From assembly GCF_963506605.1 (NCBI RefSeq), contig NC_083277.1:47802001-47866000 (forward strand): a stretch of 64,000 nucleotides of DNA. Reading direction: 5' to 3'. A program made the translations under genes and the position numbers. Numbering within the stretch: position 1 is the first letter of the stretch; each line of letters opens with the position of its first letter. This DNA is from Zootoca vivipara (lineage: Eukaryota). Positions 6,636-56,841 of this stretch are shown in pieces. A model generated the notes under the pieces. The model ran no database searches. It was not told the DNA's origin and saw only the letters and a list, made by a program, of their open reading frames with translations.

Positions 6636-8369
6636 GGTATCTTTACCTTTAAGAGAATGGGGTAAAACATTAATTTTAACCCAGCTTTCATTTCAGACTA
6701 TACCTTTATTACACATCTTAACTTGTGTTGCTTTTGCCTTTAAAACCCCCAAACATCAAATAAAGCAGTGAATAAGTGTCCATGTCACTGATCTGCCTTC
6801 TCCACCCTACCCAATGTAAATTACACAAATCATTATCCAAACTTTTTATTATAATAATAATGGTTTGAAAATTCCTCAGAGGAATAGACTTCTTTTATAT
6901 AATTTCATACTGAAATGAATAACTTCAAGCACCCCCTTTGGTCTTTTGCCAAGAGTCCTTTTTAGTTCAATTTTCCATTGTTTTAAACCAGAGGCCTCCC
7001 ACCATTTTGCCTGTAGCTTCATGGTTTCCTCACTCAACCTTCCTGCCTCTCTTAACTTTCCTTATCAGTTGGGGAGGGGGACACTTGCCCTACTCTACAG
7101 AGGACATTCCTCTATTTGAAAGGCTGTCCATCTCTTCCAAGTGCTCTGTCAGATTAATGAGTCACAAGGAGGGAAAGTGTGAGGGGGCCTTGAAGCTGGA
7201 CAACAGACTGAGTGGGCTTTCAGACTTCCCCACCACAGTGAGAAGAACTGTATTTCTATTATATTTCCATTCAAATTGTGGTAATTATTTCTAAATGTGG
7301 ATCTTTTCACATAAATTAGCATGTGCACATTTTAAGCAAAAGCACATTTGTTACAGTTACGTAACAGGCAAATTGTCTTGTCTTCTTACAGGTCTTGTTT
7401 TCTGTTGTTTAGGTATGAACACACTACGAGCTGAGTTAATGGCAAATGAAGCTTTGTTCTGCCCTCCTTTTTCTTTTTTTGGAGCATACATAGAGTAGAA
7501 GCTAACTTCTCCAGCCAGACCACACCTTTGAGACGGCTCTCCAGGGGCTGGTCTCCTGGGTCAAAGCTGTTTCTCTTTAAGGGACCCCATGCCAGATATC
7601 AAATCGGGAACGAATAGATATTTTACACTCATGAGGATTAATCACACAAGGTCTTCCTTCACGCTGAATGGTGCTTGGATGCCCTCCCTGCACATTCCCT
7701 GTGCCCCTCTTCAGCAAGGCCTTTCTTTTAAACTCTTCCCAGTTCCCACTGTGACTTCACTTCAGAAGTTGCATCTAATCTATGTTGACATATGAATATG
7801 CATTGACTTGTTACTATCAGGACTGGATGTTCTCTGTCTCTTCTTGCAAAAGCTGACTCTTGTGCCAGGGAATTCCCAGTGCTTTACGTTATAATTACAT
7901 ACAGTATATTTATATTTATCTGCTTTGATAATACTCCTTCCTAGAATCAAACTTTTGCTAGGGCTGGGTTGCAGAGGGGAATAGCAACCACGGCACTGGC
8001 CTTGGACGGCCAGGATGGCCACACAACAGCAGTCATTATGGGCAGCTAGACTGGTGACTGGAAGTGGCCGCTGAGACCATATAACACCAGTCCTGAAAGA
8101 CCTACGGTACATTGGCTCCCAGTACATTTCCGAGCACAATTCAAAGTGTTGGTGCTGACCTTTAAAGCCCTAAACAGCCTCGGCCCAGTATACCTGAAGG
8201 AGCATCTCCACCCCCATCGTTTAGCTGAGATCCAGCTCCGAAGGCCTTTTGGTGGTTCTCTCACTGTGAGAAGTGAGGTTACAGGGAACCAGGCAGAGGG
8301 CCTTCTCGGTAGTGGCGCCGCCCTGTGGAACGCCCTCCCATCAGATGTCAAGGAAATAAACAACTATCT

Positions 8370-8757
8370 ACAGGTAGGTAGCCGTGTTGGTCTGACGTAG
8401 TTGAAACAAAATTAAAAAATTCCTTCTAGCAGCACCTTAAAGACCAACTAAGTTTTTATTTTGGTATGAGCTTTCGTGTGCAAGCTTCAGATACACTGAA
8501 ATAGAAGTCCCCAGGCGCTATATGTAGAGAAAGGGTGGAGAGGGCGCATCACTCAGTCGTTTACAGTCATCAACAGCTATCAGTCAGTCAATCACCCATT
8601 TCCACCACCCTTCTGAGTGATACCCCCTCCCCACCCTTTCTCTACATATAGCATCTGGGGACTTCTATTTCAGTGTATCTGAAGAAGTGTGTATGCACAC
8701 GAAAGCTCATACCAAAATAAAAACTTAGTTGGTCTTTAAGGTGGAAGGAATTTTTTA
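8370..8757. mobile_element. Penelope-like element fragment with inverted duplicated terminus
   Basis: ACAGGTAGGTAGCCGTGTTGGTCTG terminus shared with the copies at 53406 and 55000; inverted arms ~8415-8530 and ~8630-8755; TSD-like AAACAACTATCT / AAACAACTCCCT. Confidence 0.8.
8675..8712 (+). ncRNA. Minimal type I hammerhead ribozyme motif (Penelope-associated)
   Basis: GTAT-CTGAAGA-A-GTGTG(TATG)CACAC-GAAA-GC-TC-ATAC: stem I GTAT/ATAC, core CUGANGA and GAAA, stem II hairpin, palindromic AGCT in place of stem III, UC cleavage dinucleotide. Confidence 0.7.
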
Positions 8758-8977
8758 AAACAACTCCCTGACTTTTAGAAGACACCTGAAGGCAGTCCAG
8801 TTTAGGGAAGTTTTTAACGTTTGATGTTTTATTGTGTTTTTAATATTCTGTTAGGAGCCGCCCAGAGTGGCTAATAATAATAGCTCCAGACAGCTGCCAG
8901 TTCCTTCCTACTGCCCTTAAAAATCAAATGCAAATACTGTAATGACGTTCCAGAGTGCTCTTACTTTAAGGAGTAAG

Positions 8978-15163: not shown

Positions 15164-17568
15164 ACTGTACCTTATTTTGAGGCGGCCGAGGAGTATTTAA
15201 GAGAAGGAGTGGCCTTCCTTTCATTCTACAAATCATCTCACCAGCGGTCTGCATTCTGCAGCCTTCCTGACTGTCTGTGCTTCAATAAAAACCCACGGAG
15301 CCTCTTTGAAGATCAGGAAGCACAGGCAACCAGGAAAGAAAACTGGGAAACTACTGGAAAGGAAAACAGACACACGACCCTCAGCAACCTTGTCACAATA
15401 AAGTGAGCTCAAAACTCCGCACTCATTGAAATTGTACAAAAATTGTGAGGTGAATGAAGCAGAAAAAAGAAGCCTCTTTTGCAAAGGAACAAAACTTTTC
15501 AAAAACGGAAAGACAGATTTTAGTTCAGCACTACCTTCGACTCTCTTCATCAGCCATAACAAGCAGGGACAAGAAATAGATAAAAATCAATGTGATATGA
15601 TAATCATAATAATCATAATAATTACCATGGATACTAGGCAAGTTGTGTGAACCGCCCTGAGACCTCCAGGTAAAGGGCAGTATATAATTCAATAAATAAT
15701 AATAGGCAATTCCAGCACTTTTTGTCATACATAATTCGTTACCACAACTATCATGCTGCCAAACACAGCTCATTGCTAGTGTAAACAGGATCATCCCCAT
15801 GCTTGCAGATGTCCAAGAGACATGAGCCAGAAACATTTCTTAAGATTTCAAGCATTGCATCTTGGTTAAATCAATATCATAGGGATATGGTGAGGCATTC
15901 TGGTTCGTTCACATATTTATATCTAGATCAGTTTCCTGACATGGGTTATGCATTATAGCAAATTTCCAGTACAAATTGCAAGCAGAGTTTCCCGAATCTG
16001 GATTGGAATTGCAGTGGTGTGTGCATGTTTTAATTAGTCAAATAACTCCCAGTCCAGACCAGCCCCCACATGCTAACTGGGGAAAGCTTCTATTGTATTC
16101 AAGGGCAAGCTACAAGATCAATCAACATTCTGTTTAGTTTGGAGCCATAGTGTTCAACTATAGGAGTTGCTATAGTGGTTCATGTGTTTGATGGAAACAG
16201 CTATACAAAACATACCCCTGAAGGATTATTCCAAAAAATGTTTCTCTCCCCCCCCCCAAAAAATCATTTATTTAGGAACCTGGATCTCCTTCGTCCCCCC
16301 ACTTCCATCTACCTCCTTGCATTGTACATGGGATCTACGGGGAGACAGAGATGGTACAGCCTGCAGTCATGCAAAATGTAAGGCTGGTAGGGAAATCTTC
16401 CAAACCAAATCATTTCTAATTGGGAGAAGGGCAGGTGAACGGGAAGAGAGGGGATGCTGTTACTTCCAATATTTCAGGGTTAGTTCGGCTCTCTAAACTC
16501 CTAGTTGCGTGTTCTCTCTTACAAAGCAGAATAAAGAGCATTTGGAATTGGAAATGTCACAACCTATTTCCACTGTAGAACTACTCCTCTGCTTTAGCAG
16601 ACAGAAAGTGTTGAGCATTCTCCTGTCCCAACTTGCTGCTCAGTAAATACTGTGTGTGCCTGGCCTGAATAGTGTAGCAGGGAATGTATATAATCTGCTC
16701 TTGTAAAAATCAGTTCACTTGAGGGCAAGCACATGAAGTAATCCCACTGCCAGTTTTGCCAAGATCAAAAGGACTTTGTGTGATGCTACCATCCCACACA
16801 GTGTTTTTGAATCTCAGGAGCAATTTGGGGAGCAAATATAATAATGTGCTCTGCTGGTCATGTGCAAACGTCCGCAGGGTTCAGGAGTAGGCTGATTGCC
16901 TTGCCTGCAAAGTCAATGGCTGGAATCTGCATACACTAAGATGATCAATCAACAACATTCATCTGAGGATAAAGGGATATAACGCCCATGTATGTACTGT
17001 GAGTCCTCAGTTCCTTGACCTTCATATGCAGATGTAACAATGCCTAATATAATTGCAGTGAAACAAGATTGGCTTCAGGCTTCCTTTAAAACCTGCTAAT
17101 GTCAAAGGCATGTTTGACAAAACTATATCTGGGTCCCTTGCGCCTCTCTTCAGTGAATTTAAAAATTGATTTTAAAAAAAACAAACCAGGTCTGAGAAAT
17201 CAAATTTGAGCCTTCTGGTACAATGCTGTGACCCATAACTGTTGTTTGCATATCACTTCATAAAATATGCAGAGAGCTTTCCCTAGCAAAATAACATATA
17301 TAGGGGAAAATGTGAAGCTGAAAATTGCACTGCACAGCTAACCAACTTCAATGATATTTTTAATCAGATTGAACAAGCAATTATGGTTTATAAAATAAGA
17401 CAGATAAAAAAAATTAATCTGCAAAATACTGCCAACAATTTAATGATATATAATATATATATACATTTTAATATTAAAAGTAAATTGTAAATGTGTCTTT
17501 ATAAACAATAGGCATAAAATAGATCTATAATAGTAAAAGCTCTGCCTCTCTTTTTAAAATGCTTTTTC

Positions 17569-17670: not shown

Positions 17671-40849
<23,179 letters not shown>

Positions 40850-42649
40850 TGTAAACCCTGAAACAAAAGAGAGATGAATGAGTGGGTTTTTTGGGGGGGT
40901 GGGACTATATCAATATATAGTTCCTTAATTAAACATGGCCAACATAAGATCAATGTAGTGGGAAAACAGTAGTGGTAAAAAGCAGATGGGCAAAATGGAT
41001 GCACGGAAGGTAGGGATGGATGGATATATCAATTTCAGTTTCTAATGTTTTCAGTTTTAAAGTCCAGGTCTCCACATTTGCATATCAGAAGTACCATTGG
41101 TATTCATCAGTGAATTTCTACTAATATACACATATTGGTATGTAGGTTTGCCTAACATATACATTTCTGCAAAGCAATTTCCTCTAATATAGTACATTAG
41201 AATAATAGGATCATAGAGTTGGAAGGGATCCTGAGGATCATCTAGTCCAACCCGCTTGAGATTATTTTCAGTAATATATAGATTTTGATGCATACTTTAC
41301 TCTAGCATATGCATTTTTGTTGACGTTACTTGATAGGCGATCTGTATTGCAAAATTTGAAGACGTGCAAATTTCAAAGGATGGTTGTTTTCCAGTTTGCA
41401 TATTGCTTCAGAAAGTGTGGATTAATTAGGTCCCCTTTTAAATGCAAACATAATTAAATTTCTTCTCCACCCCTAACAGATAAATAGATGAAATCAAAAT
41501 AGAAAGTTCATGTTCCAAAGAGAGATACTTTGGGACACACACACACACACACACTCACAACAGATGACCATGCCAGATGTGTAATGGCTTTTGAAACAAC
41601 CCAGTTTACCACGCAGCTTGGGTAAGAGAGCACTGTTTAAGAAACGAGTCGAAAGCATACATGGGACATAATAAGCAGTTGTTCTTTGGATCCCAGCCAA
41701 CATTTGTGCCCTGAACATTGCCAATCCACAGCTAACCAAAAACAGAGAACATAGCAAGGCCAAAACGCAACTTCGGTTTTTGGAAGCTCAAAAAGTAAGA
41801 GGCATAGAAACCCTGAGGGAAACTTGCTGCATTGAATAAAATGTGAGTATCTGAGTGATATATTGCTGTTCTTTAAAAACAAAATGTACTTTTGCAAAAA
41901 GTCCATGCCTCAAAATAGGGCTGGTTAGGAGAACTTATTTTTATTATCTCTGGTTTTTATTCTGACTTGGATGGTTTTAATTTATCTGCTGTATAATCTC
42001 TTTTTTCCCTCTGGTAGCAGGGCTGGAAATCCCCCTTCCCCTGCCTGCCTGACAGTGATGAGGCACCTCATCAGAGAATACCATGCTGGGCTAGATGAGC
42101 AAATACTCTGACTCAGTATAAGTCTGCCTCATATGTTTCACTTATGGCATGAGAGAAGACCCATATTTTTTTCTAGCCATCTAGCAAAAGAATCTCCAAA
42201 TATGACGCAGTAAATCTGGAACAATACCAAACCTTGATGAAAAATAAAATAAAATAATCATGGTATTGCAAAAGGAAATGGTTACACTGCATCCTACTTA
42301 ATAATAATAAAAGCAAGCATTTATATAGTACAGGTGTGGAGAAACCTTGGTCCTCCAGAAGCTTCTGAACTATTGCAATTCAGATACATCAGGAGGCTCA
42401 ACAGTTCCCCACACCTGATATTTCAAGCATATTTATCACACAACCATTACCATCTCTATTTAGACATAAGTCCTACTGAATTCATTGGGGCTTACTTCCA
42501 CATCAGTGGGGTTAGAATGGCAGCCTAGGTACCTCTTCTCAGGAACGCTTACAAGAAGTCGGCAATGTAGTCCAGAATTAATATGTAACACTGAAAAGGG
42601 TACAGGCTGAGACCACCTAGATGGTTTTCTGAACATACACACTTTACCG

Positions 42650-52679: not shown

Positions 52680-53405
52680 TACTACTCCACCAGTTCTAAA
52701 TACACCAGCTGAACTCCTGATGAAATACGCTTAGGGTTGCACTGCAAATCATTTCAATATCCTAATCTTTATTTGAATATTGGCCCCATTCAATTTTAAG
52801 AGAACTGGCTTCTACATAAGTAGCTCAGGAATTTGGTGTGGTAAACTCAACTCAATAATTAACAAGCTTAAAGATTTTATTTGTTTATGATGGCACAACA
52901 GCAGCCTTTATGACTTTACTTTAGGCTCTAATTGGCTTGTGGCTACTCAGGAGGATCACAAGTTACTCAGCATGCCTACTTAGGGCCAAACTAAATGAGG
53001 TAATACAGATCTGTGACTAGATCTCCCAGGTCTATTAAATTTTGGCTAATAGCAGGTGTGCAAGTTAGATCTGGGGAAATGCTATGAAAATGCTAGTGTT
53101 ATATTTCCAGGTGCCTGTATCTCCAGACATACAGATTTTTTTTTAATCCCCAAGGAATAGTTGTTTCACACATTACATATCAGAAAACATTTGTCTGACA
53201 CTGAACATACACTTCCAAGGAAGCTCCGGCTAACCCTAGCTCCCTGACGATTGTACAAGTATAATGACATATTAGATACATTGAAAACATTTTTGTGTAT
53301 GCCTAAAAATGAAATGTGTAAAGAAGCCAAAAGTCAAATTTCAAATCCTTTGGAGCAAAGCCATACTATGATCAGCTAAGTTTTAATGTGGCAGCCATAT
53401 TTGTT

Positions 53406-53562
53406 ACAGGTAGGTAGCCGTGTTGGTCTGGCGTAGTCGAAACAAAATAAAAAAATTCCTTCCAGTAGCACCTTAGAGACCAACTAAGTTTGTCATTGGT
53501 ATGAGCTTCCGTGTGCATGCACACTTCTTCAGATACACTGAAACAGAAGTCACCAGATCCTT
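53406..53562 (-). mobile_element. Penelope-like fragment with mutated hammerhead (GAAA>GGAA, 53499-53536)
   Basis: Shared terminus; TSD ATATTTGTT. Confidence 0.82.
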
Positions 53563-53837
53563 ATATTTGTTGTCTGTGTGCTGCCCACACATGTGGAGTG
53601 TCTAATTCTAACATCAGTGAGACTGCGCAGGTGGGGAGAGGTGATCTTTTATTTCAAGCATCTCTCACTCAGCTTGGCTTAGTGCCAATGTCAAAAGGGA
53701 AGGGGAAGAGTTTTTACAACAGACTCGAGTGGAGTTTAACAGTATGTCCTTTTCTTTTTATAAAAAAAGTATTTCCCTTGAAATTGTGGCATTAATGTGT
53801 CATTGATGTGCCAGAAGGAGACCTAGTTCCATATTTA

Positions 53838-54186: not shown

Positions 54187-54999
54187 ACATAGTTCCATAT
54201 TTAGTTGCTTGACAAAATGAGTTCCTGATCTTTGCCAGCTGGAGCAAAGGTTTTCACTAAGAGGTCAGTTTTTATGAATCATGGCAGAGTGGGAAGGATC
54301 AAATGTTTGGGCTCTCAAAGAAGAGATCACAACCACCTTGCTCTTCTTCTGACCTAAGTCATGCTTTGGCTTAGCATGACTTTCAAACCTGGGCTCATGG
54401 TTTAGCTCTCCTAGATAAGCCACAAGCTGGAAGCCATATGACGAGCCTTAGTTGCATCTTGTGGGTTGTCTGGAGAGAGCTAAACCACAAACACAGGCTT
54501 GGATGGCATGCTAAACCAAACATGGCTTAACACAGCACAGCAGCAGAACAACCAGAAAGGAGCAAGGTTGCCTCAACCTCCTCTCTAGGAGCCTGTAGGT
54601 GTTCTCGTTTGCACTAAACAATGGCTTATCTTAGCATTACATGCAAATACATTAGCTGCCTACCAGTATTTAATGAGATGAAACCCAGAGAGCAATACCT
54701 ATTACTTTAATCCATTTCACTTGTCATTTCAAGCTCATCTGATGGAACATGAAGGAAATTCTGGATAAATATTCTTTGTGGAACAAAACTATGTAAGACG
54801 CACTTCTGTGTATGTTTACTCAGAAGTTCATCCTACTATGTTTCATAAGATTTATTCTCTAGTAAGTACATTAGGATTTCACCTGAAGTATACTTTTGTG
54901 AAGACATCTATTTTTCTTTCATCATTTCCCCATAAACTGAAGATCTACTTTCTTTTCTGATGAGTATACCTTTACCTTAGAAGAACTCAGATAAATGGT

Positions 55000-55186
55000 T
55001 ACAGGTAGGTAGCCGTGTTGGTCTGACGCAGTCAAAATAAAAATAAAAAATCCTTCTAGTAGCACCTTAGAGACCAACTAAGTTTGTCATAGGTATGAGC
55101 TTTCATGTGCATGCACACAAAAGCTCATACCTATGACAAACTTAGTTGGTCTCTAAGGTGCTACTGGAATGATTTTTTATTTTTAT
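55000..55186. mobile_element. Penelope-like fragment forming a fold-back hairpin
   Basis: Inverted arms centred on GTGCATGCAC; TSD TCAGATAAATGG (54987-54998, 55187-55198). Confidence 0.85.
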
Positions 55187-56141
55187 TCAGATAAATGGGT
55201 TTATTTCACATGTAAGAGTGCTAAAGCAGAAATAATAACTTTTCGTTTCTATTATTTAAATATGCTAATTGCTTATTAGAGATGTCCAAACTGAAAATAA
55301 TGCTGCCACCATGGAGCAGTACTTCAGGGTTCCTAACACTGTTTCAGAAATATCTATGATACTAAGTTTATGTGGTTAACTTGTATACATTAGTTTAGTG
55401 TCTGCTAAAACTAAAGCTACAGTACTGCAAAGCAACTGAGAAAGAGCAAAAAAGGGCATTAACTTTCACTGGGGAGCTGGGTTTCTGATAATATGAGCAA
55501 TGTTTCCTATGTCACCTTCATCTTTTTGATTGACTCTTCTTTATTTCTGTGTGTCTAATTCCAGCTTTTCCCCTTTTGTGGCACCATCCCTGAATGTATC
55601 GTTCTGAACTGGCATCTCCCCAACACCTGTCAGCTTTCATACAGAAGCCCATGAGGAACCTGTACAACTGACATGAATGCTTGTGCTAGCAGAGTGCATA
55701 GAAGGTTAAGACTTCCCCTTAACAAGCCTTTATTTTCTCACCTGCACAATCTCAAGAAAAACAAACTAGCCACTTTTTGTTGATAAACCAAAGCCATTTC
55801 ATGCAACTGCACTTTTGAACCAAACAAATCCTTTATAACAAATGCCAACTTGTATTAACATGCACATGGGCAGAAATCACTTTGTGTTTATTGTACCTTG
55901 TTTGCATATGTGGGAGAGGGAGAGAGATTCATCTACTTCCACTGCGGTGAGTCTAAACTAAAATGATGTTGCTCTTGTGTAACAGAGTGAAATCGAGAAA
56001 GGGTTCCAAGACATTCAGTATAGCACAAACCTCCATGGACAAACTTTATCAAATGAATAGTTTTAACCTCAGTTGGTAGCTATATACACAAATGGGTGTC
56101 GATAAAGCACTCTACTAACTGTGAATGCATAAGCACTTAGG

Positions 56142-56276
56142 ATCATAGAATTGTTGGAAGGGACCACACAGGTCATCTAGTTGAATCCCTGCAATGCAGG
56201 AATCTTTCCCCCCCAAATGTGGGATTTGAACTCACAACCCTGAGATTAAGAGTCTCTTGTTCTACCGTCTCAGCTT
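56142..56276 (-). mobile_element. tRNA-Lys(CTT)-derived SINE with CR1-type 3' tail (possibly Squam2-like)
   Basis: Minus strand reads GGTAGAACAAGAGACTCTTAATCTCAGGGTTGTGAGTTCAAATCCCAC..., then TAGATGACC...GGTCCCTTCCAAC..TTCTATGAT. Confidence 0.75.
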
Positions 56277-56841
56277 AAAATGGGAACTCTCGAAACTTTG
56301 CAAATTCTATACTGATGATCGAACCAGGTGTAATTTAGCTCCTTTTCTAAATAGAAGTATTACAATATTTCCCTCTTTCTTCAATTCAGGGCATGCAATT
56401 AAGCTCAGTTTTGCATTATACATGCAGGTTTTAAAATCATGATTAAATCAGCAGGAGATCAATGTTTCCCACTTGTAGAAGAACTAACTACTTGTGACAC
56501 AGCCCACTCTGCCTGCAACAACTTTGTCACCACCTGCCTTTCCAACATTCTTACATTTTATCTTACCCTTCTTCCAAAGATCTCAGAATGGCATACATGG
56601 CTCCACACAGAACTTTCCACCCTCACCAGCATCCTTGTGAAGCTGGTTAGGCTGAGAGATAATGACTAGCCCAAGGTCACAGATGAATTTCATGTCTCAT
56701 AATAGATTTAAGCCCAGGCTTCTCTGAATTCGACACTCTACTGAGTAAATCAGCACCCACCCACCCCCAATTTGGTTTACATGTTATGAATTCTTTTTAG
56801 TCATTTGGTTTATTTTCTCTGTTGGAAATTATAGGCTTGAA

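What the first reader, a model, noticed from the sequence alone, without database searches (positions are those of the whole stretch)
8675..8712. Intact minimal hammerhead ribozyme motif inside a Penelope-like element
Seen: GTAT CTGAAGA A GTGTG-TATG-CACAC GAAA GC TC ATAC. All catalytic core nucleotides are present, with stems I and II and the palindrome AGCT where stem III should be. Established: Penelope-like retroelements carry minimal hammerheads lacking helix III that are thought to cleave as dimers via such palindromes. The other copies here are disabled in different ways: stem II deleted (~8464-8494), GAAA>GGAA (53499-53536), truncated (22740-22770), folded back (~55093-55130). Inference: a lizard-wide family of self-cleaving RNA motifs, with disabled copies lying sense to the PPARG transcription unit (22740 in intron 5; 53499 upstream of coding exon 1), where an active ribozyme could be harmful.
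Basis: partly seen in the sequence, partly recalled or inferred. Interest (0 to 1): 0.7.

Follow-up and report, generated by a model that had tools for sequence, protein, structure and literature searches.

The report
Penelope hammerhead at capped RNA start
This self-cutting RNA motif is real but ordinary, one of over 18,000 near-identical copies spread by a Penelope-type jumping gene with no sign of being purged from genes; many copies begin exactly at its first letter with an extra G, so the motif likely sits at the capped start of the jumping gene's RNA.

Summary
Observation confirmed. 8675-8712 (+) is an intact minimal type I hammerhead with a palindromic AGCU mini-helix III. It lies in the pseudo-LTR of a young RT/GIY-YIG Penelope-like element (Neptune-type linker, 3,030-bp unit, 925-codon open frame). 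The 30-nt core has 18,108 exact matches in this genome. The class was described in 2014.

The selection idea is not supported. This copy is 9 kb beyond the PPARG stop codon and on the opposite strand. In 1.69 Mb of oriented gene bodies, intact motifs were 12 sense and 11 antisense. The commonest core lesion is CpG decay at G12. Transcribed across the whole fold-back insertion, this copy is predicted to be locked in a long hairpin.

One side result is useful. About 22% of core-intact copies diverge just before stem I, and 2,665 of those 4,023 carry an extra G there, about 31 nt below a TATA-like box. Under 1% show a purine at the cut site. The hammerhead is therefore likely the first 38 nt of a capped mRNA that is copied uncut. 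The scan noted this before in other genomes. Cleavage is untested.

The parts
8675..8712 (+). Minimal type I hammerhead: stem I 8675-8678/8709-8712, CUGAAGA 8679-8685, extra A 8686, stem II 8687-8691/8696-8700, GAAA 8701-8704, AGCU palindrome 8704-8707, predicted cut 3' of C8708. One C>T change from the family in loop 2.
8370..8757 (.). Inverted (fold-back) insertion of two pLTR pieces of a Neptune-type Penelope-like element; arms 79% complementary; no ORF
8358..8369 (+). Left copy of a likely 12-bp target-site duplication (right copy 8758-8769, 2 mismatches); the target is itself an older repeat
   Evidence: read by eye
8643..8650 (+). TATA-like box TACATATA at -32 from G8675 (TACATAAG at -31 in L045 and L008); promoter role inferred
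8464..8494 (-). Hammerhead remnant in the mirror arm; A9 and the 5' strand of stem II are lost
22677..22770 (-). 5'-truncated pLTR piece in the last PPARG intron, same strand as PPARG; lacks CUGA and has C11.1>A
53403..53564 (-). pLTR piece with a complete hammerhead carrying A13>G (53509); upstream of the first detected PPARG coding exon; not shown to lie inside the transcript
54998..55187 (.). Fold-back pLTR piece with its junction at 55111/55112, the centre of the stem II palindrome; both arms carry CpG-type transitions
17671..40909 (-). PPARG coding span (PF12577 exon near 40.8 kb, zinc-finger exons near 39.8 and 38.4 kb, ligand-binding exons near 26.5 and 17.9 kb, stop at 17671); context only

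Best explanation
The motif is an intact minimal hammerhead carried in the terminal repeat of a very abundant Penelope-like retrotransposon, it likely forms the first 38 nucleotides of the element's capped RNA, and this lone fold-back copy likely does nothing to PPARG. SHOWN: family identity, copy number, position outside and opposite to PPARG, no strong orientation bias in gene bodies, pile-up of copy starts at stem I with an extra G, and rarity of starts at the cut site. INFERRED: RNA polymerase II starts at G8675-equivalent, about 31 nt below the TATA-like box. The element's RT primes at one of two tail sites about 90 or 130 nt downstream, or in the next pLTR, copies uncut RNA to its 5' end and copies the cap as an extra G. 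Cleavage after C17 would need a partner copy or the element's protein and would remove a 34-nt capped leader, so it would act on translation or stability of the element's RNA, not make the template ends. Dispersed copies then decay neutrally, mostly by CpG loss at G12.
For: Family: GIY-YIG frame upstream on the same strand; 3,030-bp unit, 925-codon frame, RVT_1 and GIY-YIG over cut-off, CX4CxxC linker; 18,108 exact 30-nt cores, reversed control 0. Start pile-up: 4,023 copies lack the templated T before stem I vs 1,569 lacking the next base; 2,665 of the 4,023 have G there. Of 40 GG copies, 8 have a TSD abutting GG; in 4 of these the G is not in the target and in 4 it can be microhomology. Self-priming at stem I is not the main source: 28 of 40 show no further match. 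GG occurs in several subfamilies and in copies that run on into the ORF (10 GG, 3 AG, 87 TG of 100 listed). Cut site: 85 purine-preceded vs 14,512 pyrimidine-preceded 3' halves in one subfamily. An extra G marks capped full-length L1 ends (PMC11702581, one passage). Anolis PAc RT primes internally on uncut RNA and its hammerhead needs protein (PMC11167929). Orientation 12:11. G12 substituted in 10 of 64 fragments vs 4 of 537 letters at the other ten core positions. Whole-insertion fold gives P=0.0 for stems I and II.
Against: No RNA evidence for the start site: reads on a full element show no pile of starts at stem I or at C17 (fragmented libraries, signal swamped by dispersed copies). 16 of 40 GG copies adjoin an inverted arm that can supply the G, 2 of 40 are long copies with T>G, 5 have a TSD plus filler, and 9 had no TSD. 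Non-templated C addition by the RT would also give an extra G without a cap. D. virilis Penelope has a TATA-less internal promoter and an intron before the hammerhead (PMC2377424, PMC4209133), so the layout is not universal. The orientation test has 23 intact motifs from 21 large genes. An earlier unreviewed scan note reports starts at the cut site in another genome. No cleavage was measured.
Confidence: 0.7

Rival explanations
1. One reading: intact hammerheads cut host pre-mRNA, so sense-strand intronic copies survive mainly when disabled.
For: In the window, both copies lying sense to PPARG (22740, 53499) are disabled and the intact one is antisense. Xenopus retrozyme arrays are under-represented in introns (bioRxiv 2026.07.22.740005, passages; strand not tested in the passages seen).
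Against: 12 sense vs 11 antisense intact; among complete motifs 12 of 26 sense and 11 of 22 antisense are intact. Single-orientation intact insertions were 6 sense vs 2 antisense. A single minimal motif showed no cleavage in vitro (PMC4209133).
Confidence: 0.1
2. The hammerhead processes tandem transcripts into unit-length or circular templates, so cleavage defines the ends that are reverse-transcribed.
For: Proposed in PMC4209133 (discussion read). Tandem units with a hammerhead every 3,030 bp exist, as do 293-bp and 598-bp arrays. Frequent variants within the motif fall on tolerated positions N7 and H17, as expected if source elements are selected for catalysis.
Against: Only 85 of 14,597 3' halves have a purine in place of C17; 1 of 78 sampled fragments starts within 5 nt of the cut; copies carry both sides of the site. 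PAc insertion did not need cleavage in vitro (PMC11167929).
Confidence: 0.12
3. The motif is kept mainly as a structure and dimerisation signal (14-nt stem II palindrome plus AGCU) bound by the element's protein; catalysis is marginal.
For: Family stem II is a perfect palindrome; predicted duplex -25.2 kcal/mol (window copy -21.2) vs -3.9 for AGCU. Fold-back junctions fall in it (55111/2; several). PAc protein is predicted to be a dimer (PMC11167929).
Against: All catalytic positions other than the CpG are almost invariant while N7 and H17 vary. PAc core mutants lose cleavage and a compensatory pair partly restores it (PMC11167929).
Confidence: 0.08

Closest known systems
Minimal type I hammerheads in pLTRs of metazoan PLEs, palindromic mini-helix III variant (Cervera and De la Pena 2014, PMC4209133; results and discussion read)
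   Same: [quoted passage not shown]
   Different: Copy number is higher (18,108 exact cores vs about 9,000 motifs in Xenopus tropicalis), one homogeneous family dominates, stem II is itself a perfect palindrome, and the parts read do not mention copy starts at stem I
PAc (Poseidon of Anolis carolinensis) hammerhead (Frangieh et al. 2024, PMC11167929; main text read)
   Same: Lizard PLE, hammerhead at the pLTR-ORF junction, an ATG in stem II, two tail ends, copies made from uncut RNA
   Different: This family has the Neptune-type CX4CxxC linker; in the young subfamily the stem II ATG opens only an 11-codon frame and the long ORF's first Met lies about 135 nt downstream
EN+ PLEs, Neptune/Nematis type (Craig et al. 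2021, PMC8557442; passages)
   Same: RT, Zn-finger-like linker, C-terminal GIY-YIG, partial tandems, inverted 5'-truncated copies, 30-40 bp tail
   Different: No tree was built, so Neptune vs Nematis is not resolved by test
Non-LTR retrozymes (bioRxiv 10.64898/2026.07.22.740005; abstract, introduction, part of methods, passages)
   Same: PLE-derived type I hammerheads; this genome has tandem arrays of 293 and 598 bp
   Different: The window copy is a lone fold-back insertion, not a tandem array

Membership tests
Minimal type I hammerhead (PLE type) | Core C3-U4-G5-A6-N7-G8-A9, G12-A13-A14-A15.1, U16.1-H17 | tested here: met
Minimal type I hammerhead (PLE type) | Helix I 4-5 bp closing the motif; helix II with G10.1-C11.1 and an extra base after A9 | tested here: met
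   4-bp stem I, 5-bp stem II; both form in the 38-nt MFE. In 8675-8760 stem I probability is only 0.01; in the young family's first 135 nt about 0.5
Minimal type I hammerhead (PLE type) | Absent or tiny palindromic helix III | tested here: met
   AGCU; near-invariant in sampled fragments
Minimal type I hammerhead (PLE type) | Covariation in the stems | tested here: inconclusive
   Stems are nearly invariant in this one family; no compensatory pairs to count
Minimal type I hammerhead (PLE type) | Self-cleavage after H17, as dimer or with protein | not testable with these tools
   RNA-seq shows no end pile at C17, which fragmented libraries would rarely show
Rfam hammerhead families | Covariance-model match | tested here: not met
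   No hammerhead family at E<=5
EN+ Penelope-like element | Single ORF with RT and C-terminal GIY-YIG | tested here: met
   L045 925-aa frame: PF00078 and PF01541 over cut-off; the window copy itself has no ORF
EN+ Penelope-like element | pLTRs from partial tandems, inverted truncated copies, optional 30-40 bp tail | tested here: met
   22 of 53 insertions inverted; 3' ends cluster near +88 and +125
Neptune clade | CX2-5CxxC linker between RT and EN | tested here: met
   CNKPRCQLC vs PMC8557442 passage; a Zn-finger-like linker is also described for Nematis
Neptune clade | RT phylogeny | not tested
Non-LTR retrozyme | Tandem units each with a hammerhead | tested here: not met
   Window copy is an inverted pair with one intact motif

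The most novel reading that the evidence does not exclude
In this PLE family the hammerhead is a self-decapping switch. It occupies nucleotides 1-38 of the capped mRNA, and dimer- or protein-triggered cleavage would remove the cap and a stem II upstream ATG, so only uncut RNA is translated and copied. The thousands of G-tagged 90-130 bp mini-copies are a genomic record of cap copying by a telomerase-like RT.
Probability: 0.3. Interest if true: 0.62.

Novelty: new member of a known kind. Interest (0 to 1): 0.3.

Why it matters
The motif itself adds little: PLE hammerheads, including reptile and lizard ones, are in print. Two points are useful. First, strong purging of intact sense-strand copies from introns is excluded in this sample, which fits lone copies being catalytically silent. 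Second, hammerhead function in PLEs is still called unclear (PMC8557442). If the motif starts at the cap, its role narrows to controlling translation or stability of the element's RNA, which CAGE and a reporter can test directly.

Tried and rejected
Rfam scan: only hairpin-driven miRNA matches below gathering score and one tRNA-like hit; no hammerhead. Sequencing-run search: no RNA holder listed. Raw RNA reads on a full element: depth peaks on the hammerhead-tail region, 46-88% of laid reads run on into unlike sequence, no start or end pile at C17 or at stem I; uninformative. Transcription of the window copy and library strandedness could not be examined. Self-priming at stem I as the source of the extra G: rejected as main cause. 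RT stalling at the structure: rejected by reasoning, since RT would meet the 3' strand of stem I first. A single GG-starting master SINE: unlikely, as GG occurs in several subfamilies with unrelated flanks, though three copies (L228, L229, L231) share one junction. One gene of 21 (PDZ_C14a) had reversed T/A skew and may be mis-oriented; dropping it changes nothing. A SINE control showed no bias (62:62). Lunse et al. (PMC5785218) is not held; known only through a review passage and reference (PMC6765202). Eight literature searches were answered; none showed a paper on copy starts or cap-G at PLE hammerheads, but subscription papers, Repbase/Dfam entries and all supplements were not seen and may hold this family.

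Full report
OBSERVATION. A scanner for type I minimal hammerheads finds only this site in the window. Sixty shuffles gave 0.08 loose hits each and no strict hit. Rfam has no matching hammerhead model. The motif lies in the right arm of a fold-back insertion, 8370-8757, whose arms are 79% complementary and which is flanked by a likely 12-bp duplication.

WHAT IT BELONGS TO. The 30-nt core matches exactly 9,023 times forward and 9,085 times reverse in the 1.44-Gb genome, and the reversed control never matches. Longer copies carry a GIY-YIG frame upstream on the same strand. Eight fetched loci show a 3,030-bp unit from hammerhead to hammerhead and open frames of 925-932 codons, with RVT_1 and GIY-YIG over their cut-offs and a CX4CxxC linker like that described for Neptune elements (PMC8557442, passages). 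The best 150 endonuclease matches are 99-100% identical, so the family is young.

POSITION RELATIVE TO PPARG. PPARG is on the minus strand, with coding exons from about 40.8 kb to the stop at 17671 and poly(A)-signal words at 17472, 17444 and 17364. The intact copy is 9 kb beyond the stop and on the other strand. An RNA read through the whole insertion on the plus strand is predicted to be one long hairpin in which stems I and II have probability 0.0. From its own putative start, stem II forms (0.9) but stem I hardly does in this copy (0.01).

TEST OF THE SELECTION IDEA. I took gene spans from same-strand Pfam exon hits (PDZ, CUB, I-set), fetched 1.687 Mb from 21 genes, and turned each to the host's sense strand. 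Twenty of 21 show the expected T-over-A skew. BLAST found 78 pLTR fragments in 53 insertions, 22 of them inverted pairs. Intact motifs were 12 sense and 11 antisense (95% interval for the sense share 0.31-0.73); non-intact fragments were 31 and 24; Fisher p=0.81. A stricter scanner gave 11 and 10, with 0 hits in five shuffles. A true sense share of 25% or less is rejected (p<0.005) and 33% is marginal (p=0.045); 40% is not excluded. In the same DNA an RTE-like LINE was 15 sense to 30 antisense and a SINE 62 to 62. The commonest core lesion is at G12, which sits in a CpG: 10 of 64 fragments, against 4 of 537 letters at the other ten core positions. Frequent variants elsewhere in the motif fall on N7 and H17, where the ribozyme tolerates change (tolerance is textbook knowledge). 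This suggests selection on source elements and neutral decay afterwards.

WHERE COPIES BEGIN. In the sample, 5' ends peak at the first base of stem I (9 of 78 at -4, 20 of 78 between -5 and -1) and only 1 lies within 5 nt of the cut. Genome-wide, 4,023 core-intact copies lack the templated T before stem I, about 22% of the count (the patterns differ slightly), against 1,569 lacking the next base. G replaces that T in 2,665 of the 4,023. Of 40 such copies, 8 have a duplication abutting the GG (4 with a G absent from the target, 4 where it can be microhomology), 5 a duplication plus filler, 16 an inverted arm, 2 are long copies with T>G and 9 are unresolved. They come from several subfamilies, and 28 of 40 show no sign of self-priming. 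Among 100 listed of 101 copies that run on into the ORF, 10 begin GG and 3 AG. A TATA-like box lies at -31 to -32. At the cut site, 85 3' halves are preceded by a purine against 14,512 by a pyrimidine. An extra G is the known mark of a copied cap in full-length L1 insertions (PMC11702581, one passage).

MECHANISM. I infer that transcription starts at the first base of stem I. The RT primes internally at the tail (3' ends cluster near +88 and +125; shown in vitro for Anolis PAc, PMC11167929) and runs to the capped end of uncut RNA, leaving many 90-130 bp hammerhead mini-copies and longer or inverted ones like 8370-8757. Cleavage, if it occurs, needs a partner or protein: a single minimal motif did not cleave in vitro and dimers were weak (PMC4209133), and the PAc motif needed protein (PMC11167929). 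It would remove a 34-nt capped leader. Against this, RNA reads give no start pile, the G could be non-templated, and D. virilis Penelope has a TATA-less promoter (PMC2377424, passages).

COMPARISON AND NOVELTY. The motif meets the sequence and structure criteria of the minimal PLE hammerhead, palindromic variant, described in 2014 for Neptune and Poseidon elements and for reptiles; activity is untested. It is a new member of a known kind. The start-site inference did not appear in the eight answered literature searches. Earlier unreviewed notes of this scan reached the same reading in other genomes and one reached the opposite; I had formed the reading before that call. Papers seen: PMC4209133 (parts 1-2 of 4), PMC11167929 (parts 1-2 of 4 and passages), bioRxiv 2026.07.22.740005 (part 1 of 5 and passages), passages of PMC8557442, PMC6765202, PMC2377424, PMC11702581 and PMC7353768 (nothing relevant). 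No supplements were read.

VERDICT.

Noticed in passing
G000:C3:91909166-91911654 and G000:C1:2777820-2779678: Tandem arrays of hammerhead-bearing units (9 listed units of 293 bp; 4 of 598 bp), retrozyme-like and the arrangement best suited to dimer cleavage in cis
   Followed up: no
L228, L229, L231: Three unlinked copies share one identical inverted junction upstream of GGTATC, so a fold-back composite appears to have been amplified as a unit
   Followed up: no
window 55098-55125 and family stem II: Stem II is a perfect 14-nt palindrome; the predicted dimer is a stem II strand swap, and fold-back junctions often fall in it
   Followed up: partly
window 8370-8380, 53406-53416, 55001-55011 (+): The reverse strand of the element's tail reads CAG|GTAGGT, like a splice donor (consensus recalled); both strands of some subfamilies also carry AATAAA
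   Followed up: no
L052 (about 15 kb left of the window): Two tandem LTR-retrotransposon-like RT frames of 813 and 497 codons; label from recall
   Followed up: no
window 56211-56284 (-): tRNA-like Rfam hit at 33.7 bits, over the gathering score of 29; possibly a SINE head
   Followed up: no
L045:4100-7560: RNA reads cover the hammerhead-tail region far more deeply than most of the ORF, mostly joined to unrelated flanks, so mini-copies appear common in host transcripts
   Followed up: partly
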